From a virus (taxonomy: Duplodnaviria > Heunggongvirae > Uroviricota > Caudoviricetes): a stretch of 18,020 nucleotides of DNA. The DNA is taken from IMG/VR virus record IMGVR_UViG_2657245664_000010. One strand, written 5' to 3'. The notes under the pieces were generated by a model, which saw only the letters and a program-made list of their open reading frames with translations, did no database searches and was not told the DNA's origin. Position 1 is the stretch's first letter, and each line of letters starts with the position of its first letter. Positions 228 to 8,457 of this stretch are shown piece by piece. A program made the translations under genes and the position numbers.

Positions 228-971
228 TCAGATTCCCTGGTGAGTAAGAATTTTACTTTCTGAACTCCTCTGAGGGTATTGACTTGGAGAAACACCAAAA
301 TAACGTCTAAATACATAAGTAAAGTATGAGACACTGGCATAACCACAGACCTTAGCTACTTTACTAATAGGATAACAACGAGTGCTGAGTAAATATTCAG
401 CCATTTGCATCCTCTCATCAAGTATGATCTTACTGAATGATACCCCCTCTTCTTTCAATTTCCTCTTTAGTAAACTTTCGCTGAGATATAATCTTGATGA
501 TATATCCTTAAGACGCCATGGTGCAGATAAATCCGTATGAATAATCGTTTTAACTTTAGCCCCTGTGCTTTTCAAACATCCAAACAGAAATACTCCAAAT
601 TGTTTTTCAGAAGAAAATGCAGAGAGACATGTAAAAGCAATAGACTCATCAAAAATTTCTATATATTCAGCACAGTGATTAGCCCAACTAATTAATCCTT
701 TAATTAAACTGAAGTCAGCAAAGTTTATTTTTAAATAAGATGGATATTCCCTACAATCAGAAATATCCCTTAAGTTATTAGCTTTCAAATAGCGACTAAT
801 AAACTCAGCGCCAAAATCCGCCACTATCACTCTTTCAGGATATGTCAGGAAAAAATCTCTATAGCTAGAGTCGACAAGTACAGATAAACCTCTATCCAGA
901 AACACACTCTCTTTTCCGAAATAAACATCAAAGGACTCCAAAATCAATATAACTGAACATGTAGTTGCCAT
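228..971 (-). CDS. AraC/XylS-family transcriptional regulator, AppY-like
   Basis: C-terminal double helix-turn-helix typical of AraC proteins (WRLKDISSRLYLSESLLKRKLKEEGVSFSKI... and ...GYASVSYFTYVFRRYFGVSPSQY). The N-terminal CSVILILESFD block resembles DLP12 AppY from memory. Very AT-rich gene and upstream region. The ORF track starts at a GTG at 980; the ATG at 971 is the likelier start. Confidence 0.75.
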   Translation of the reverse strand: MATTCSVILILESFDVYFGKESVFLDRGLSVLVDSSYRDFFLTYPERVIVADFGAEFISRYLKANNLRDISDCREYPSYLKINFADFSLIKGLISWANHCAEYIEIFDESIAFTCLSAFSSEKQFGVFLFGCLKSTGAKVKTIIHTDLSAPWRLKDISSRLYLSESLLKRKLKEEGVSFSKIILDERMQMAEYLLSTRCYPISKVAKVCGYASVSYFTYVFRRYFGVSPSQYPQRSSESKILTHQGI

Positions 972-1699
972 ATCATCCACCCAATTTAACTGAAACCAGG
1001 ATGAAGTATATGCATATAAAGTTCACTTTGCCAAACTTCAGTATAAAAAACCACATAAAAAATAGGGTGTGATAAAAAATACCGTAAAAATAAAGCAAAG
1101 GATTATAAATTCCGTTACAGTTACAAATGATACTAAAGAAACAATTCCTTAGAAAACCTTATTTACAGCCAATAAGTAAGACACTTATATGATATCAAGT
1201 TTTCATAAAACATAACTAGGCTAAATAGCTGCGCCTAATACCGCTACACTTTTGCCAGCCCATGTTTGCCTCCGGGTATTGACCCCTTCTCTACGCAACT
1301 TCAGTTCCCACCACCAACTTTGCGGCAGCTTTGTAGGATCAATGTCTAAAAGAATAATGGTGACCGATAAGAAAACGACTGAATAACTGCAGATTTTCGC
1401 TCGAAACCTTCCTGTCAGATCCATAGCGAATCAAGTGCTGAATGTCACAGTATCGAACAGAAAACAGTGACGATCTAACCCTTCAAGAATATTCTACGAT
1501 TGTTCTGTTTAGGAAAAGCAAGGCGGGAAGTCGGGAGATAAGTCATTGATAAAGTGGCGGAGAGAGGGGGATTTGCCCCCCCGGTAGAGTTGCCCCTACT
1601 CCGGTTTTCGAGACCGGTCCAATCATCAAACGAAACATAAAATTAATTCACATTATGAGGAAAAGTATCTTTTTTGTACTTGTAAATTCAAAGGCTTAG

Positions 1700-2569
<870 letters not shown>

Positions 2570-2645: not shown

Positions 2646-3059
2646 TTAACTGACCGAATCTGGCTGAATAGGCAGTGACTGTGTCCAGTCACCAGCCCTG
2701 ATATATGCACGTAATGATTTACGGTACTCAGTCCACTCTGTAAGTGCCGACTTCACTGCGTTCTCAGTTGTGTCAGTGTAGTCAGCATCCTGGATCTGAT
2801 CGTTCAACAAATCGATTTGAGTTGTTGCGCGAGCATACTCAGAGTTTGATATTGCCATATTTTCCGCGGCTAATTCGGCAACTGATTTTTCAATAACTGG
2901 CGCCGTGAAATTAGTACCGTCATATGTCCAGTTTATTCCTGCGGCAATGCCAGTAATATTAATGACGGTGTAATCCGGAAATAATTTTTTTGCATCGTTA
3001 TCTGAATTACAGACAACCGTATTTACGACGACATTATTTTTAATTAATGCGTAATTCAT
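2646..3059 (-). CDS. Phage tail fibre assembly (chaperone) protein, Tfa-like
   Basis: Sits immediately downstream of the glycine-rich fibre gene with a 1-nt overlap. The N-terminal MNYALIKNNVVVNTVV...WTYDG pattern and the C-terminal ...LTEWTEYRKSLRAYI... pattern are reminiscent of Tfa-type chaperones. Confidence 0.55.
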   Translation of the reverse strand: MNYALIKNNVVVNTVVCNSDNDAKKLFPDYTVINITGIAAGINWTYDGTNFTAPVIEKSVAELAAENMAISNSEYARATTQIDLLNDQIQDADYTDTTENAVKSALTEWTEYRKSLRAYIRAGDWTQSLPIQPDSVS

Positions 3060-3694
3060 TATGCAAACTCCTCAATCACGCAGATCCCAGGCGCTCCTGT
3101 TCCACCGGCTTTTAGCACTCCTGAAAAAGCGGTGTCATAAGCAGCACCTCCGCCAGCACCATATGCTTTGGCTGCAACACCATTAGCAGAACCAGCACGA
3201 CCACCTCCCCCCCAGAACGAAGCCGCACCATTACCAAATGAGTAATAACTTCCCTGCTGACCGTCACTACCATAGCCACCATGGATATTGATTAGCCCGC
3301 CAGTAGCTGTTCCATCTGCACCACCAGAACCAATTGACGGAGTGTTTACGCCGGATCCACTACCACCGCGACCGGCTGACATTCCATTAAATGTTGATGT
3401 CCCACCTGGATTATCAGCTGTTCCACCTGCTCCGATAACGACAGAAAAATCACTGATATCTTCAAGGTCAAAAATACCGATGCAGGTTGCGGCAGAGCCA
3501 CCTCCACCTCCAAACGCCGTCTGAGAAAATGATGTGGCGATGACAGAACTACCACCGCCACCTCCCCCGGTAAGAATTACCTTAATTTTCCGGGTACCCA
3601 AGCATTGTGCTGGCATTACCGATAACGTCGTTCTGCACAAAATCCGCCACGCCATCGATACTGAAACCGCTGAAGCTGTCACTGATGCAGTCAT
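3059..3694 (-). CDS. Glycine-rich tail fibre protein, C-terminal portion (5'-truncated or fused; true start uncertain)
   Basis: Long Gly/Ser/Ala-rich repeats (GGGGGGSS, GGGGGS, GGSGSG) ending ...GICVIEEFA, directly followed by Tfa. The 5' part of the ORF overlaps the upstream gpN-like ORF in another frame, which suggests a deletion junction. Confidence 0.5.
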   Translation of the reverse strand: MTASVTASAVSVSMAWRILCRTTLSVMPAQCLGTRKIKVILTGGGGGGSSVIATSFSQTAFGGGGGSAATCIGIFDLEDISDFSVVIGAGGTADNPGGTSTFNGMSAGRGGSGSGVNTPSIGSGGADGTATGGLINIHGGYGSDGQQGSYYSFGNGAASFWGGGGRAGSANGVAAKAYGAGGGAAYDTAFSGVLKAGGTGAPGICVIEEFA

Positions 3695-4124
3695 CCAGTG
3701 CAGAACAGGATGACATCAGCGTCTGCGCCGTCGCCACGCCTGATGTGGGGTAAGAGAGATCTCCCGCTTCGACAAACTTCAGGTCAAAGCGGACAATACG
3801 CCCTTCACTCTTCGATGTGCTGACCCGAACTTCCCCGTCAACACAGACTTTCAGCTCACCGTATGTCGGGTGGACAAGCGTGCCGGGACCGGGTTTATTC
3901 AGCGCGTCAATCAGGCGATCGCGCTGGTCAAAGCAGTCATCTCCCACCACATAAGCCGTGATGGACGGGCGGAAAGTGACTTTTCCCAGATCTTCGGTAT
4001 AGGGTTTGTCGCGGTTCGGATATTCGTGTGTTTCCACACGACGGCCGGTTCCCGCACTTTCTTCTTCAACCTTAAACGGCACACCTCGAAATGACGCATC
4101 CTGAAGCCTGTCTTTCCACGTCAT
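3582..4124 (-). pseudogene. Mu gpN-like DNA circulation protein, N-terminal fragment
   Basis: MTWKDRLQDASFRGVPFKVEEESAGTGRRVETHEYPNRDKPY... matches the remembered N-terminal domain of Mu N (gp43) family proteins. At about 180 aa it is much shorter than full-length members. GGAG ribosome-binding site before the ATG at 4124. Confidence 0.55.
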
Positions 4125-4133
4125 ATACACTCC

Positions 4134-4165
4134 GAAAATAAAAAAGCCACCTATTAGAAGGTGGC
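4134..4165 (-). terminator. Rho-independent terminator downstream of the AT-rich membrane-protein gene
   Basis: On the minus strand: GCCACCT-TCTAAT-AGGTGGC (7-bp stem) followed by TTTTTTATTTT. Confidence 0.65.
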
Positions 4166-4185
4166 CTTGTAATGAATTTTATTAA

Positions 4186-4716
4186 TTAGCGAGTCAGAAA
4201 CAACGAATCTTTATACTTTTGCTGTTGTTCATTTAAATACTTAGCTGTTTCATCGCTGGCAAATGGAAATATTACCGTATTTTTAGGCATGGTAATTTCT
4301 TTTTTGTCCAGCGTCAGAGTAAACATAGGAACATACTGAGCAGAGTAACGCACCGCAGAAACGAGCTCTAGTTTAGACTCTTCAATAACACTTAAATTAT
4401 CCAGGCTAACTTTCTCTTCATCTTTTTTCTTTGACGCATTTAAAGTTTTTATTACTTTATTTAATTTCTCCTGAAAATCCTCCTTAAAGTTTTCAGGATT
4501 GCCGTCGACAACAAGAATCTGTTCACCCTGATTATCTGGAAAAATAATCTTTGCACTTATCAATTTATTTTCTTTATAAACATCACCAAGTTTTATGGCT
4601 CCTCCAGATAACTGAATAATATGTTCATCTTTAAAGGAGATGTTGCCAGAGATTATGAGAGATGAAAAAATAGCCGCTGCTCCAAGAATTACACTTGCTG
4701 TGATATAGCCTTTCAT
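4186..4716 (-). CDS. Hypothetical membrane-anchored or secreted protein (AT-rich cargo gene inside the tail module)
   Basis: 176-aa ORF with a hydrophobic N-terminus (MKGYITASVILGAAAIFSSLIISG), a Lys/Glu-rich body and markedly AT-rich codon usage compared with neighbours. It has its own terminator and an AT-rich upstream region. Confidence 0.55.
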   Translation of the reverse strand: MKGYITASVILGAAAIFSSLIISGNISFKDEHIIQLSGGAIKLGDVYKENKLISAKIIFPDNQGEQILVVDGNPENFKEDFQEKLNKVIKTLNASKKKDEEKVSLDNLSVIEESKLELVSAVRYSAQYVPMFTLTLDKKEITMPKNTVIFPFASDETAKYLNEQQQKYKDSLFLTR

Positions 4717-4807
4717 TTTTCGCCTATTAACATTTTTCTAAATGTGCATTAATTCTATCACTCTATTTATGACTTACAACCAGCAATACATGTGAGGGGA
4801 ATCCTGG

Positions 4808-6640
4808 CTACCAAAATCGGGTATAGCCAACATCGTGATTTATATCAATGCCACTGGAGCGTGTTTCCGTAACCCGCATACCTGGTGGCATATTTATAAA
4901 TGATACCTTGATCTCACCATCAACTTTTGGCGCGGTAGCTTTATTAATCATGAAGGGATTCGAGCCTGTGGCATCGGAGGCGTTGTTTGCCTGAGCCGGA
5001 TCCACCGCCGGATAAGGCGTGTATCCCCGTGCCGGTATTTCCGTCCCATAAGCATCATAAGCACCCGCGCCCCACTGCGCCGAGTTAATGGTATCGACCG
5101 TGTCACCGGAACTGTCGGTAAACCATTCAATAATCGGCTTCAGCTTATCCCACATATCCTGAAACCACTTAACAACCGGTCCCCAGTTATTGATCACCAT
5201 CCCCAGCGGCGACCAGGCAAAAACTTTCTTAAGGAGTTCCCAGCCAGCCTCAAAATAAGGACCAATGGTTTCCCAGAGCTTCTTGAAATAAGGTCCGACA
5301 ACATCCCAGTTAGTGATAATTAATCCCGCAGCCAGGGCTATCGCCGTCGCAATCATGCCAATCGGCGTCATCGACATGATCCTGCTGACAATGCTGATGG
5401 CACTGCCCACGCCCATCAATCCCAGTTTCAGAATCGCAAGACCGGCAGCAAGCCCGACGACGCCGCGAATAACCCGGGGATTTTCATCCGCAAACTTCGT
5501 GAATTTCTCCCCCAACTCCCCCAGCCACTGCGTGATGTTCTTAGCGTCACCAGAAAATGCGCCGCCAATAGCCGCAAGGCCGTTAGTTGCGGTCCCCGTC
5601 ATTGCCTCCCACAGGTTGGACAGCGTACCAAGCTGAGCCTGAACACGTTTATTCAGGCTGGCCTGTTTATTCATCTTCTGCTGGATCTGATCGTAGCCAT
5701 CCTTTCCTTTATCGATTAGTGCATTGACCACCTGAAGGGTTTCGGCATCATCACCAAATATTGCCTTAAGTACACCGGTTCGCTTAACGTCGGTCAGTTT
5801 TCGCAGCTTTGCCAGTTGCCTGAACATGTTATCAAGACCGCCAAAACTCCCTTTGCCATCAGTAAAATCGAGCTGTACCCCGAGTTTCTGGCGGGCCATG
5901 ATTTTATTGACGTCCCTGATTTTCTTAACGCTTAATCCGGACTGGATAACTTTTCGCAGGGCATTACCTGCCGACTCCCCGTTCATCCCCATCTGATCCA
6001 TCATGACACTGATGGGGGCAAGACTCTGTGCAGCCTGAAGACCGTCCTTATTCACCATCTTCAGAACAGAGCTGGTTTTAGTGAAGAATGACAGCATGTT
6101 GGTATCGTCCACGCCCAGATAAAACGCCTTCTGAATTGTGTCGAACAGCCCCATCATGTCTTCTGAGGCCGTTCCGGTAGCATCCTGCATCTTTGCGGCA
6201 AACTCAGCAGCCGCTTCCGGTGTTTTTTTCAGTTGTACCGCAAGATAAGCTGTCGCTTTACCCACACCACCAAGAATGTTTTCTGCCGGGATCCCCTGAC
6301 GCACCAGCATCTGCATCATGTTCTGGAAATCAGCCGTTGTACCGGGTAGCTGGTTACCCAGGCCAATAGCCAGTTTATTGATGTCCTGAAAGCTCTTTCC
6401 AACCTCGCCGTTCGCATCCATCATGGCGACTTTCAGCCCGGTGGCGGCGTTTTCCTGATCAGCATAAGATTTCAGGGAAAGCGTCAGACCCGCTGCCAGT
6501 CCGCCACCAAGCGCCAGCCCACCCTGTGACGCTTCTTCCGCCTGGCGTTTAAATCCCCGGATTTTCTTTTGCATTTTCGACAGCGCGGGAGAAAGCCTGT
6601 CGACACCGGTGATCAACGCCTTAAGCTCAAATTCAGCCAT
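4808..6640 (-). CDS. Phage tail tape measure protein
   Basis: 610-aa protein with an alpha-helical, Ala/Gly/Leu-rich repetitive composition and a hydrophobic segment (VIRGVVGLAAGLAILKLGLMGVGSAISIV). It sits upstream of the gpN-like gene, as in Mu-type tail modules. Confidence 0.7.
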   Translation of the reverse strand: MAEFELKALITGVDRLSPALSKMQKKIRGFKRQAEEASQGGLALGGGLAAGLTLSLKSYADQENAATGLKVAMMDANGEVGKSFQDINKLAIGLGNQLPGTTADFQNMMQMLVRQGIPAENILGGVGKATAYLAVQLKKTPEAAAEFAAKMQDATGTASEDMMGLFDTIQKAFYLGVDDTNMLSFFTKTSSVLKMVNKDGLQAAQSLAPISVMMDQMGMNGESAGNALRKVIQSGLSVKKIRDVNKIMARQKLGVQLDFTDGKGSFGGLDNMFRQLAKLRKLTDVKRTGVLKAIFGDDAETLQVVNALIDKGKDGYDQIQQKMNKQASLNKRVQAQLGTLSNLWEAMTGTATNGLAAIGGAFSGDAKNITQWLGELGEKFTKFADENPRVIRGVVGLAAGLAILKLGLMGVGSAISIVSRIMSMTPIGMIATAIALAAGLIITNWDVVGPYFKKLWETIGPYFEAGWELLKKVFAWSPLGMVINNWGPVVKWFQDMWDKLKPIIEWFTDSSGDTVDTINSAQWGAGAYDAYGTEIPARGYTPYPAVDPAQANNASDATGSNPFMINKATAPKVDGEIKVSFINMPPGMRVTETRSSGIDINHDVGYTRFW

Positions 6641-6923
6641 GTGTGCGTTTCTCCTGCTCTATCCTGTTTGCCTGACTGACCAGCAAGGGAATTTCACTGA
6701 TCGGCATATTCAGCAATTCGAAGGGATTAATGCGCCAGTAGCTGGCGCAGTCAAAGAAGCGATCAGTGAGGTATTCAGCCGTCAGGCCTGGAGGAAAAAA
6801 CCAGCCACAAGCCACGCCGCTGCATTCAGGTCTGCCGGAGACATCTGGTCGACAGAGCTTTGCGGCACTTTCGCCAGCCGCACAATGTATTTCGACACCA
6901 CATGCGCCAGAAGTCTGACGGAC

Positions 6924-7355
6924 TCATCCTGATTCATCTGGTAGGGATACCACACAGCCGGGATCGACGGGCAGCAGTTCAGCCACTTCGCCAAATGCTT
7001 TCACTTTGTAGGCGTAAAAGTTTCCCCGCAGGCACAGACAGGTGACCACCAGCTCCCAGAACTCCTGCGGCGTCATATAGCCATTGGGATGCGTGGAGAT
7101 CAGCTTATGCAGACGTTCGCCAGTGGCTCTCTGCTTCAGGCTGCCGTTCAGGTGATACAGGTTGCAGGGCAACATCCCGACCGACTCCGCCAGCACCCTG
7201 ACACAGGAAAAAACCGCCGTCAGTCGCATGGCCCGCTGGCTGCTGATCTGCTTTCCGGTATAGGTGTCGTAGGACAACCCGATAGCCTCCGCCAGCTCTG
7301 CTGGCGTGGTCACCGGTGCGTCACTTTTTCGTTGAAATAATCCCGAAAAGAACAC
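6924..7355 (-). pseudogene. HK97-family portal protein, N-terminal fragment
   Basis: ...LTAVFSCVRVLAESVGMLPCNLY...GERLHKLISTHPNGYMTPQEFWELVVTCLCLRGNFYAYKV... resembles the portal N-terminal region. It is truncated after about 140 aa and begins at a GTG overlapping the HNH stop. Confidence 0.55.
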
Positions 7356-7639
7356 TATTTACCTCCGCCGACATGCGCTTTAGGGATGATGTGGTCAACA
7401 GTTTTCGCCTCACGCACCACACCAGCACGCAGACATAACTGACACAGGCCTTTGTCACGCTTCAGAATGCGCGTACGTATAACATCCCACTTAGAACCAT
7501 AACCACGCTGATGACGGGACTGTCCTGGCTTGTATTGCTTCCAGCCTTCGCTTTTGTGGCTTTCGCAATAACCTGACGGGTCAGTGGTGGTATGGCGGCA
7601 GCCGCGAACACGGCAGGCTTTTGGGGTTCGTGGGGGCAT
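7355..7639 (-). CDS. Phage HNH endonuclease (HK97 gp74-like), apparently C-terminally truncated
   Basis: CRVRGC...YCESH zinc-ribbon-like N-terminus, then CQLCLRAGVV...TVDHIIPKAHVGG, the first half of an HNH motif. The protein stops before the expected second Cys/His pair. Confidence 0.6.
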   Translation of the reverse strand: MPPRTPKACRVRGCRHTTTDPSGYCESHKSEGWKQYKPGQSRHQRGYGSKWDVIRTRILKRDKGLCQLCLRAGVVREAKTVDHIIPKAHVGGGK

Positions 7640-7760
7640 ATGTACTCCAATGAAGAAACCAGCGAAATAGCTGCCTTCATTCGTAGTAAACCTTTTTCAT
7701 CAACGCAGTAATGGATTCTTTGAAGAGTCGCGATCAATACAACTCACTAATGGAGAGACT

Positions 7761-7778: not shown

Positions 7779-8163
7779 AATTTCCCGTTTGATTTAATGG
7801 ACACTATAGAGGGACAGAATGCCTTCCTCACTCGAATCACATCAATTAAGGAGGTTCAACATGTTTCATTCCACAAGTCATCAGGCTGTAATTATGGCAG
7901 CATCAGTTTGTGCCAAAGACCTTTTCCGCTTCACTTTGAGCCTGATTCATTTCTACCTGACCGGCTCGCCTCTATCTTTTTAATCCCCGCTTTATCCAAA
8001 TTGCATTGCCATAATGCCGACAACACACTGACATTCAAATCCAGACTACCTCCAATAGTCTGACCGTACACCTATATAGTTTTAATTTTCATCAATCCAT
8101 TTAACTATCGTTTAATTGTTGTCACATAGGATTCTGCTGTTTTTAACAATACAGGATAATAAG

Positions 8164-8457
8164 ATGAAAAAAATGTTGTTTTCTGCCGCTCTGGCAATGC
8201 TTATTACAGGATGTGCTCAACAGACGTTTACTGTTGGAAACAAACCGACAGCAGTAACACCAAAGGAAACCATCACCCATCATTTCTTCGTTTCGGGAAT
8301 TGGACAGGAGAAAACTGTTGATGCAGCCAAAATTTGTGGCGGCGCAGAAAATGTTGTTAAAACAGAAACCCAGCAAACATTCGTAAATGGATTGCTCGGT
8401 TTTATTACTTTAGGCATTTATACTCCGCTGGAAGCGCGTGTGTATTGCTCACAATAA
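8164..8457 (+). CDS. bor: Bor lipoprotein (lambda Bor / Iss family serum-resistance lipoprotein)
   Basis: MKKMLFSAALAMLITGCAQQTFTV...ITHHFFVSGIGQEKTVDAAKICGGAENVVKTETQQTFVNGLLGFITLGIYTPLEARVYCSQ is near-identical to remembered lambda Bor. Lipobox LITGC. Opposite strand to the lysis genes, as in lambda. Confidence 0.85.
   Translation: MKKMLFSAALAMLITGCAQQTFTVGNKPTAVTPKETITHHFFVSGIGQEKTVDAAKICGGAENVVKTETQQTFVNGLLGFITLGIYTPLEARVYCSQ

What the first reader, a model, noticed from the sequence alone, without database searches (positions are those of the whole stretch)
4134..4807. AT-rich self-contained cargo gene for a membrane-anchored protein inside the tail module
Between the tape measure gene and the Mu-gpN-like gene lies a 176-aa ORF whose base composition is far more AT-rich than its neighbours. 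It has a hydrophobic N-terminal anchor or signal, an AT-rich upstream region and a strong terminator (hairpin plus TTTTTTATTTT) immediately downstream. That is the textbook signature of an independently transcribed, horizontally acquired moron. Cargo at this position in other phages includes superinfection-exclusion or envelope proteins (Cor, Lom types), but this protein matches none I recognise.
Basis: partly seen in the sequence, partly recalled or inferred. Interest (0 to 1): 0.55.

Follow-up and report, generated by a model that had tools for sequence, protein, structure and literature searches.

The report
Membrane-anchored cargo gene in prophage tail
An AT-rich add-on gene sits in a swappable slot between two tail genes of an E. 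coli prophage and encodes a membrane-tethered periplasmic protein of an uncharacterised phage family; its most likely job, not shown here, is to block entry of other phages.

Summary
A 176-aa ORF (4186-4716, minus strand; GC 0.34 against 0.52-0.55 in its neighbours, z = -6.6) lies between the tape-measure gene and a truncated Mu-gpN-like gene. It has an AT-rich leader and is followed by a stable hairpin plus T-run.

Comparison with relatives shows it is accessory cargo, not a tail part. The backbone is an SfV/SfI/SfII-like temperate myovirus, and in those isolated phages the slot is empty. In E. coli genomes the slot holds one of at least four unrelated AT-rich cassettes: this ORF (174 of 5426 genomes), a 164-aa secreted protein, a membrane-anchored OB-fold protein that PHROGs labels "Sie-like", or a bacterial PH-domain protein.

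The protein belongs to PHROG 5485 (unknown function). It is predicted to be a single-pass inner-membrane protein (N-terminus in, C-terminus out) with a roughly 150-aa periplasmic alpha/beta domain. The model is confident (pLDDT 92) and matches no solved structure. The gene is under purifying selection (dN/dS about 0.1). Relatives recur as AT-rich cassettes in tail modules of unrelated myovirus prophages and in a Q-holin slot.

Two corrections apply. The terminator's T-run and position belong to the phage backbone, and the promoter is only a consensus match. A role in superinfection exclusion is my inference (about 0.4).

This is a new member of a known kind.

The parts
4808..6640 (-). Tail tape-measure gene (610 aa). 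This is the upstream boundary of the cargo slot. Homology with empty-slot relatives is lost within its last few codons.
   Evidence: PF10145, E = 1.3e-26; RefSeq annotation; alignment A4.
4717..4807 (-). AT-rich 91-bp leader of the cassette (GC 0.34). It is absent from empty-slot phages.
4752..4779 (-). Sigma-70 promoter-like site, TTGTAA-16 nt-TAGAAT with TG before the -10 element. Consensus match only.
   Evidence: Not above the chance count, and not recovered by the same scan in L002, L016, L101 or L102.
4186..4716 (-). ORF176, the cargo gene (WP_000679479.1, PHROG 5485). It encodes a single-pass membrane protein with a periplasmic alpha/beta domain.
4648..4713 (-). Codons 2-23: the N-terminal transmembrane anchor helix.
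   Evidence: Hydropathy; AlphaFold2 helix at 2-23; positive-inside rule in 56 of 60 family members; some relatives have N-terminal extensions before the helix.
4133..4168 (-). Intrinsic-terminator-like hairpin (stem 4168..4143) plus T-run. The stem is specific to the cassette. The T-run onward is shared with empty-slot phages.
   Evidence: SfII authors annotate a terminator at this position in the empty slot.
3582..4124 (-). Truncated Mu gpN-like (DNA circularization N-terminal) gene. Its ATG is at 4124 and its GGAG RBS at 4130-4133. This is the downstream boundary of the slot.
   Evidence: PF07157, E = 6.5e-35; annotated as a pseudogene in strain SCU-118; alignment A4.

Best explanation
ORF176 is a moron: a self-contained accessory cassette made of an AT-rich leader, the gene and a hairpin. 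It sits in a polymorphic insertion slot between the tape-measure and gpN-like genes of an SfV/SfI/SfII-type temperate myovirus, which here is a deletion remnant at thrW.

The gene encodes a single-pass inner-membrane protein. The N-terminus is cytoplasmic, residues 2-23 form the membrane anchor, and a roughly 150-aa alpha/beta domain faces the periplasm. The protein belongs to an uncharacterised phage-borne family (PHROG 5485).

Shown here:
- It is cargo, not a tail part.
- It is a real gene under purifying selection.
- Its topology and fold are predicted with good support.

Inferred, at about 0.4:
- It is expressed from the prophage, and also late, by read-through of the Q-antiterminated tail operon.
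- It acts at the envelope as a superinfection-exclusion factor, most likely by interfering from the periplasmic face of the inner membrane with tape-measure or tail-tip mediated DNA entry of incoming phages. This would be analogous to HK97 gp15.
For: Accessory status:
- The flanks occur in 1093 of 5426 E. coli genomes, but ORF176 occurs in only about 174.
- SfV, SfI, SfII and vB_EcoM-689R6 have a 60-bp empty slot.
- The same slot holds a bPH_1 protein (24 genomes, and Edwardsiella phage EPP-1), a membrane-anchored tRNA_anti-like OB-fold protein on the opposite strand (70 genomes), or a 164-aa protein with an N-terminal signal-peptide-like hydrophobic segment (84 genomes, and phage SKA5). All have GC 0.31-0.39.

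Composition: z = -6.6.

Real gene:
- dN/dS is 0.08-0.16 in unsaturated pairs.
- 74 of 75 E. coli copies are intact, with 16 synonymous and about 11 nonsynonymous variants, the latter mostly conservative.
- The profile search finds 79 family clusters at 50% identity; the 60 near-full-length members aligned are 166-250 aa, most 170-180.

Topology:
- Each of the 60 aligned members has one hydrophobic helix.
- The N-flank has net charge +1.9 and the C-flank -0.5, and the N-flank is the more positive in 56 of 60 members.
- Three relatives have 50-118-aa N-terminal extensions before the helix.

Structure:
- AlphaFold2 with 60 sequences gives pLDDT 91.7.
- The only significant fold match is a lipoprotein of Pseudomonas phage ventosus. 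Foldseek gives E = 1.3e-6 and hhalign gives 77% probability, E = 2e-5. The same domain is therefore tethered to a membrane by a lipid anchor elsewhere.

Mobility between slots:
- One relative lies between the Q antiterminator and the holins of a lambdoid prophage.
- Others lie in tail modules of an E217-like prophage and a Yersinia prophage, again AT-rich with a hairpin and T-run.
- A lone copy remains next to icd in Lelliottia, with only the last tape-measure codons and the hairpin.

Hints towards superinfection exclusion:
- The allelic OB-fold cargo matches phrog_8545 'superinfection exclusion Sie-like' at E = 1.5e-49.
- The family repeatedly lies beside tape-measure genes.
- HK97 gp15 is the precedent: a moron beside the tape-measure gene whose inner-membrane product blocks DNA entry (PMC3594210).
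- A Q-type antiterminator (quuD) is present in this prophage.
Against: - No expression data exist.
- The promoter is only a consensus match, at chance frequency, and the simple scan does not find one upstream of most orthologues.
- No homology to any tested exclusion or defence protein was found: PADLOC, Pfam and NCBIfam give no hits, HK97 gp15 gives hhalign probability 0.1%, and PDB sequence and fold searches are negative.
- The PHROG 'Sie-like' label of the neighbouring cargo type is an annotation, not an assay, and that protein is unrelated to ORF176.
- Position beside tape-measure genes may only reflect permissive insertion sites at terminators inside long late operons.
- Survival in this remnant could be chance, because the adjacent tape-measure gene is intact too.
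Confidence: 0.45

Rival explanations
1. It is a lysogenic-conversion or host-fitness factor of the envelope, unrelated to phage exclusion. Possible roles include serum or complement resistance, stress tolerance, adhesion or colonisation, as with Bor/Iss or Lom. It would be expressed from the prophage for the host's benefit.
For: It has the same cassette logic as bor/iss, which is itself present in this prophage (window 8161-8457). The protein is targeted to the envelope. A lone copy is retained next to icd in Lelliottia after the rest of the prophage was lost. Carriers come from many animal and human sources.
Against: There is no similarity to Bor, Lom or any virulence family. A remote homologue exists in a 97-kb Pseudomonas syringae phage with no lysogeny genes annotated in the parts read, where host-fitness conversion makes little sense. 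Relatives are found almost only inside phage modules.
Confidence: 0.2
2. It is a non-essential helper for the phage's own lytic cycle, made late with the tail operon. It might protect progeny from adsorbing to debris by masking a receptor (like T5 Llp), modulate lysis or periplasmic events, or assist its own DNA delivery.
For: It is co-oriented with the tail operon, so Q-antiterminated late transcripts would read through it. The promoter is unproven. The family is repeatedly embedded in tail modules. A homologue is present in the Pseudomonas phage ventosus genome.
Against: It is absent from SfV, SfI and SfII, which are viable. Strong AT bias and discrete spacers on both sides are typical of autonomous units. 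The opposite-strand cargo in the same slot shows that the slot can host independent transcription units.
Confidence: 0.15
3. It is a conserved tail structural or assembly component, for example a chaperone paralogue or baseplate accessory.
For: Homologues at 33-58% identity keep the same position, between the tape-measure and gpN genes, in Leclercia, Edwardsiella, Lonsdalea and other prophages.
Against: The slot is empty in isolated SfV, SfI and SfII and in most related E. coli prophages. It is replaced by unrelated cargo in others. The protein has a transmembrane anchor and a predicted periplasmic location. One homologue sits between Q and the holins. It diverges far faster (41% identity to the Edwardsiella copy) than the flanking tail genes, which I judged about 80-85% identical by reading the translations.
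Confidence: 0.03
4. The periplasmic domain is an enzyme or an immunity protein, for example a nuclease acting on entering DNA, or an inhibitor of a tail-associated cell-wall hydrolase like T4 Sp.
Against: All these scores are below significance. No catalytic motif is conserved: the only invariant or near-invariant residues are G39, L43, G44, E49, Y124 and L134. The PDB profile search finds nothing.
Confidence: 0.07

Closest known systems
HK97 gp15 moron (Juhala et al. 2000; Cumby et al. 2012, as reviewed in PMC3594210)
   Same: It is an extra, compositionally deviant cassette with a downstream terminator, inserted in the tail operon directly beside the tape-measure gene. Its product is an inner-membrane protein. 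gp15 blocks DNA entry in a way that depends on the tail of the incoming phage.
   Different: There is no sequence relationship (hhalign probability 0.1%). gp15 is 62 aa with no sizeable periplasmic domain, whereas ORF176 is 176 aa with a roughly 150-aa periplasmic domain. gp15 lies upstream of the tape-measure gene in a siphovirus; ORF176 lies downstream of it in a myovirus. The function of ORF176 is untested.
PHROG 5485 (and its truncated form, phrog_34391)
   Same: ORF176 matches over the full length at E = 3.8e-108, and the distant relatives P0032, P0057 and P0091 match the same family.
   Different: The family has no annotated function, so membership gives no mechanism.
Membrane-anchored OB-fold (tRNA_anti-like, phrog_8545 'superinfection exclusion Sie-like') cargo of the same slot
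   Same: It occupies the same slot between the same two genes in sister prophages. It is AT-rich and has an N-terminal membrane anchor with an exported domain.
   Different: It has an unrelated sequence and fold, and it is on the opposite strand. Its 'Sie-like' label is an annotation that was not tested here.
Lipoprotein CNR37_00111 of Pseudomonas phage ventosus (UniProt A0A2H4P829)
   Same: It shares the predicted fold (Foldseek E = 1.3e-6, TM-score 0.56/0.66) and shows weak profile similarity over 133 columns, including the KD-x-IIH...V-x-[LV]-G-[DE]-V stretch. It is also membrane-tethered.
   Different: It has a lipobox (LTGC) instead of a transmembrane helix, is 144 aa long, and is in a 97-kb phage outside any tail-module slot. 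Its function is unknown.
Classical exported or membrane exclusion and conversion proteins (Cor, T5 Llp, lambda Bor/Lom, T4 Imm/Sp, P22 SieA, P1 Sim)
   Same: They are phage-encoded envelope proteins that change susceptibility to phage or host factors, and several are morons.
   Different: No similarity was detected in Pfam, NCBIfam or PHROGs. ORF176 has no cysteine, so it cannot be a lipoprotein. With one helix it is neither a beta-barrel nor a multi-pass protein.

Membership tests
Moron (Juhala/Hendrix definition, as stated in PMC3594210) | Extra DNA between genes that are adjacent in related phages | tested here: met
   The slot is a 60-bp spacer in SfII, SfV, SfI and strain DAM, against a roughly 680-bp cassette here. 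Alignment A4 places the boundaries at the last tape-measure codons and at the T-run.
Moron (Juhala/Hendrix definition, as stated in PMC3594210) | Base composition different from the surrounding genes | tested here: met
   GC is 0.343 against 0.52-0.55, z = -6.6 in the intact prophage. The same holds for orthologues and distant relatives.
Moron (Juhala/Hendrix definition, as stated in PMC3594210) | Own promoter | tested here: inconclusive
   TTGTAA-16-TAGAAT with TG lies at the right place, but the count is at chance level. The same scan finds an upstream site only in L008 among five relatives.
Moron (Juhala/Hendrix definition, as stated in PMC3594210) | Own terminator | tested here: met
   The hairpin folds at -15.6 kcal/mol, z = -4.7. 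Caveat: empty slots carry a hairpin at the same place, and only the stem is specific to the cassette.
Moron (Juhala/Hendrix definition, as stated in PMC3594210) | Expressed from the repressed prophage | not testable with these tools
   This needs RNA-seq, 5'-RACE or a reporter fusion in a lysogen.
PHROG 5485 | Full-length match to the family profile | tested here: met
   E = 3.8e-108, residues 1-176 against profile positions 1-176.
HK97 gp15-type exclusion protein | Sequence homology to gp15 | tested here: not met
   hhalign probability is 0.1%.
HK97 gp15-type exclusion protein | Moron beside the tape-measure gene encoding an inner-membrane protein | tested here: met
   Position. The single transmembrane helix is predicted only.
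HK97 gp15-type exclusion protein | Blocks DNA entry of superinfecting phage | not testable with these tools
   This requires plating, adsorption and injection assays.
Essential tail structural or assembly protein | Present in all functional relatives of the phage | tested here: not met
   It is absent from the isolated phages SfV, SfI, SfII and vB_EcoM-689R6, and tblastn finds no match in 50,697 phage records.
Phage lipoproteins (Cor, Llp, Bor/Iss) | Lipobox with an invariant cysteine after the signal sequence | tested here: not met
   ORF176 has no cysteine. Only 2 of 60 family members have a lipobox-like motif.
Known anti-phage defence systems (PADLOC-DB 2.0) | Match to any defence-protein model | tested here: not met
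   There are no hits at E up to 1.

The most novel reading that the evidence does not exclude
PHROG 5485 may be a widespread family of tape-measure-linked, membrane-anchored periplasmic proteins that block genome injection by recognising the incoming tape-measure protein or tail tip. Under this reading they stay genetically linked to their own phage's tape-measure gene so that exclusion specificity travels with it. The slot between the tape-measure and gpN genes of SfV-like phages would then be a previously undescribed swap-in hotspot for entry-blocking cargo, holding four or more unrelated cassettes of which three are predicted to be envelope-targeted.
Probability: 0.25. Interest if true: 0.6.

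Novelty: new member of a known kind. Interest (0 to 1): 0.4.

Why it matters
Serotype-converting SfV-like prophages are common in E. coli and Shigella; their flanking genes are present in about 20% of complete E. coli genomes here. A polymorphic cargo slot in their tail operon, with four alternative cassettes, would be a compact natural library of prophage-encoded envelope or exclusion functions.

ORF176 is the commonest occupant and founds a confidently modelled domain with no structural relative in the PDB. If it blocks entry, it would add a new protein family to the short list of injection-stage exclusion factors. It would also affect which phages can infect about 3% of sequenced E. coli, which matters for phage therapy and for prophage ecology. 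If it does not, it is one more uncharacterised moron.

Tried and rejected
- Pfam, NCBIfam and PADLOC scans of ORF176, and Pfam on 60 family members, gave nothing meaningful.
- The afdb50 fold library was unavailable.
- tblastn of ORF176 against 50,697 phage records found no match.
- The search for related loci with the diverse alignment failed because no block was conserved enough. The genome-contig scan with the close alignment added only two loci.
- A second homologous-protein run with the profile added little.
- The literature search for the accession WP_000679479 returned nothing, and no paper found describes this slot.
- The SNIPE membrane nuclease (PMC13190303) was considered as an analogue. 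From its abstract it is a different, characterised defence system; I did not compare it with ORF176.
- Tai and Tab tail-assembly blockers were considered. The text of the Tai paper that I searched puts Tai genes mostly upstream of the packaging module and never uses the word 'transmembrane'; of the Tab paper I read only the abstract. Neither was pursued.
- The idea that the terminator was imported with the cargo was rejected after alignment with empty slots.
- A cleaved signal peptide is considered less likely than a signal anchor, because relatives carry long N-terminal extensions and distant members have no conserved cleavage motif. SignalP could not be run.
- Rfam found no RNA family in the region.

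Full report
**1. What is at the coordinates**

The only ORF of 50 aa or more in 4134-4807 is on the minus strand, 4186..4716 (176 aa, ATG start). Upstream of it in gene orientation lies a 610-aa tape-measure gene (4808-6640; PF10145). Downstream lies a 182-aa fragment with the DNA_circ_N domain of Mu gpN-type proteins (PF07157).

- **Composition.** ORF GC is 0.343 and GC3 is 0.299, against 0.516/0.568 and 0.536/0.574 for the two neighbours. In an intact copy of the same prophage (E. coli S51, L001), every structural gene has GC 0.49-0.59. The ORF is 6.6 sd below the module's 531-bp windows.
- **Terminator.** The downstream spacer folds into a 10-pair hairpin (-15.6 kcal/mol, z = -4.7) followed by a T-run.
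- **Leader.** The 91-bp upstream spacer (GC 0.34) holds TTGTAA-16-TAGAAT with TG before the -10 element.
- **N-terminus.** Residues 5-24 are the only hydrophobic segment, and the protein has no cysteine.

**2. Where the window comes from**

The window is identical to a stretch of E. coli SCU-118. It is a decayed prophage at the tRNA-Thr gene next to proA. Present and apparently intact:

- the integrase and early genes;
- quuD, a Q-type antiterminator;
- a porin gene;
- the lysis genes essD, rrrD and rzpD;
- iss.

The remaining structural region is a set of fragments: HNH, the portal N-terminus and the C-terminus of a tail assembly protein. After these come an intact tape-measure gene, an intact ORF176 and a truncated gpN-like gene.

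In other strains such as S51, the same ORF sits in a complete module running from terminase through portal, capsid, sheath, tube, tape-measure, ORF176 and gpN to the baseplate.

**3. It is cargo in a polymorphic slot**

The tape-measure and gpN flanks are found in 1093 of 5426 complete E. coli genomes, but ORF176 in only about 174, always at 99% identity or more. The backbone is that of the Shigella serotype-converting phages. SfV, SfI, SfII and vB_EcoM-689R6 match both flanks at about 94% identity with nothing between them. In the spread sample of E. coli hits, most places with both flanks are also empty.

Other relatives carry different cassettes in exactly this place:

| Cargo | Size | Strand relative to the tail operon | E. 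coli genomes | Also in |
|---|---|---|---|---|
| ORF176 | 176 aa | same | 174 | – |
| Protein with an N-terminal signal-peptide-like segment, phrog_8976 | 164 aa | same | 84 | phage SKA5 (same position; identity by size only) |
| Membrane-anchored tRNA_anti-like OB-fold protein | 148 aa | opposite | 70 | – |
| bPH_1 protein | 125 aa | same | 24 | Edwardsiella phage EPP-1 |

All of these have GC 0.31-0.39 between flanks of 0.51-0.55. Viable isolated phages lack ORF176, so it is not a tail component.

**4. Cassette boundaries and the terminator**

I aligned the occupied and empty slots. Homology stops within the last few tape-measure codons. It resumes at TTTTTTAT..CGGAGT.TATATG, which is the T-run, the gpN ribosome-binding site and the gpN start codon.

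Empty slots still carry a hairpin there (CCCACTCCGGTGGG), and the SfII authors annotated it as a rho-independent terminator. Each same-strand cassette brings its own stem sequence but reuses the backbone T-run. The "strong terminator" is therefore real, but it is not evidence that this particular cargo was imported as a complete transcription unit.

Because the prophage has a Q-type antiterminator, such an internal terminator would be read through during late transcription. This step is an inference from lambdoid biology.

**5. The promoter is unproven**

The promoter-like site in the window is a consensus match at chance frequency: 2 sites found against 2.7 expected. The same scan finds an upstream site in the Lelliottia copy (L008), but not in the Leclercia, Edwardsiella, L101 or L102 copies. 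All of those copies do have AT-rich leaders with purine-rich ribosome-binding sites. The OB-fold cargo on the opposite strand shows the slot can host autonomous units.

**6. The protein**

*Family.* ORF176 matches no Pfam, NCBIfam or PADLOC model. It matches PHROG 5485, of unknown function, over its full length. A profile search of 1.84 billion representative proteins finds 79 clusters at 50% identity. Some of these are fragments. The 60 near-full-length members I aligned are 166-250 aa, most of them 170-180 aa.

*Conserved residues.* These are few: G39, L43, G44, E49, Y124 and L134, within the motifs G-x-V-x-L-G-x-V-Y-x-E and Y-x-S-E-x-x-P-x-F-x-L.

*Topology.* Every one of the 60 aligned members has exactly one hydrophobic helix. 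The N-flank carries net charge +1.9 and the 15 residues after the helix carry -0.5, and the N-flank is the more positive in 56 of 60. Three relatives carry 50-118-aa extensions before the helix. The helix is therefore a membrane anchor with the N-terminus inside, rather than a cleaved signal peptide, and the globular part faces the periplasm.

The single significant fold match is a 144-aa lipoprotein of Pseudomonas phage ventosus (Foldseek E = 1.3e-6). I located it in the genome as CNR37_00111, with lipobox LTGC. hhalign supports remote homology over 133 columns (77% probability, E = 2e-5).

*Selection.* The gene is under purifying selection. dN/dS is 0.08-0.16 in pairs where dS is not saturated. 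Of 75 E. coli copies from viral contigs, 74 are intact, with 16 synonymous and about 11 nonsynonymous variants, the latter mostly conservative.

**7. The family elsewhere**

Orthologues at 33-58% identity keep the same slot, between the tape-measure and gpN genes, in Leclercia, Edwardsiella, Lonsdalea and other enterobacterial prophages. They are always AT-rich and are followed by a hairpin and T-run. The Edwardsiella copy is 41% identical. By reading the translations, I judged the flanking tail proteins to be about 80-85% identical.

More distant members sit in other places:

- between the Q antiterminator and the holins of a lambdoid prophage;
- in the tail module of an E217-like prophage, between a small ORF and the spike gene;
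- directly upstream of a 767-aa gene in a Yersinia rohdei prophage. I take that gene to be the tape measure from its size and position only;
- next to a tape-measure gene on the opposite strand;
- for one weak member, beside a helicase, methyltransferase and ResIII cluster.

In the tail-module cases the gene is again AT-rich and bounded by spacers and a terminator. In Lelliottia amnigena a lone copy remains next to icd, with only the last tape-measure codons and the hairpin.

This pattern fits a mobile accessory cassette. The repeated closeness to tape-measure genes is suggestive, but it could simply reflect permissive insertion sites.

**8. Mechanism**

Shown here:

- ORF176 is accessory cargo.
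- It is a real, constrained gene.
- It has a single membrane anchor and a confidently modelled exported domain.

Inferred: the protein acts at the envelope of the lysogen. I rank superinfection exclusion at the DNA-entry step first, at about 0.4. The reasons are:

- the HK97 gp15 precedent, a moron beside the tape-measure gene whose inner-membrane product blocks DNA entry in a tail-dependent way (PMC3594210);
- the PHROG label "superinfection exclusion Sie-like" on the unrelated OB-fold cargo of the same slot;
- predicted envelope targeting of three of the four cargo types;
- a homologue in the Pseudomonas phage ventosus genome.

The rivals are:

- a host-fitness envelope factor of the Bor/Iss kind (0.2);
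- a late-expressed helper for the phage's own cycle (0.15);
- a tail component (0.03), which is essentially refuted.

**9. Comparison with what is known, and novelty**

The cassette meets three of the four sequence-level criteria of a moron. The promoter criterion is inconclusive, and expression cannot be tested here. It is not a member of the gp15 family, of the lipoprotein exclusion families (no cysteine) or of any catalogued defence system.

It is a new member of a known kind. Neither the protein family nor this slot appears in the literature I could search. Interest is moderate: the finding is not surprising in kind, but it defines a clean, testable candidate and a natural four-allele cargo slot in a very common prophage lineage.

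Noticed in passing
window 4133-4168, and the empty slots L013 826-885 and L107 1035-1073: SfV/SfII-type phages keep an intrinsic-terminator-like hairpin plus T-run inside the tail operon between the tape-measure and gpN genes, even when no cargo is present. Every same-strand cassette reuses the T-run and RBS but brings a different stem.
   Followed up: yes
L010, L011, L012, L014, L105, L106 (same slot in other genomes and phages): The slot between the tape-measure and gpN genes is a four-allele cargo hotspot: ORF176, a 164-aa secreted protein (phrog_8976), a membrane-anchored tRNA_anti-like OB-fold protein (phrog_8545 'Sie-like') on the opposite strand, and a bPH_1 protein. All are AT-rich.
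   Followed up: yes
L008 7633-8694 (Lelliottia amnigena): A homologue stands alone next to icd, which I recall as the classic e14 attachment site. Only the last tape-measure codons and the hairpin are left around it, so the cargo outlived its prophage.
   Followed up: partly
window 3059-4124 and 6640-7640: There are deletion scars in the prophage. The gpN-like gene is cut after about 180 codons and abuts a Gly_rich_2 ORF (3059-3694). A portal N-terminal fragment (6924-7355) abuts a tail-assembly-protein fragment. The head, sheath, tube and baseplate genes are gone.
   Followed up: partly
window 8161-8457 (+): There is a Bor/Iss serum-survival lipoprotein gene (GC 0.41) on the opposite strand within the lysis region. 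This is a second classical moron in the same prophage.
   Followed up: no
window 9750-11329 (+): A porin gene (10172-11329) lies between quuD and the lysis genes. It is preceded by the most AT-rich stretch of the window (GC 0.29 at 9901-10200).
   Followed up: no
window 228-980 (-) and 1745-2569 (+): An AT-rich AraC-family regulator gene (GC 0.35) and a LEM-3-like GIY-YIG nuclease gene lie beyond the tail-fibre end of the prophage, next to an IS/integrase-core fragment (1-186).
   Followed up: no
window 15399-16652: A tyrosine integrase gene lies next to the tRNA-Thr gene (16580-16652, minus) and proA. This is the prophage's attachment site.
   Followed up: partly
L109 6995-7429 (-) (Pseudomonas phage ventosus CNR37_00111): A 144-aa lipoprotein in a 97-kb Pseudomonas phage is a remote structural and profile homologue of the ORF176 periplasmic domain. 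It has a lipid anchor in place of the transmembrane helix.
   Followed up: partly
L110 7637-8330 (Lonsdalea prophage): In Lonsdalea the same slot holds the ORF176 homologue plus two further small ORFs (119 aa, phrog_4293; 83 aa, phrog_6136). The slot can therefore accumulate several cargo genes.
   Followed up: no
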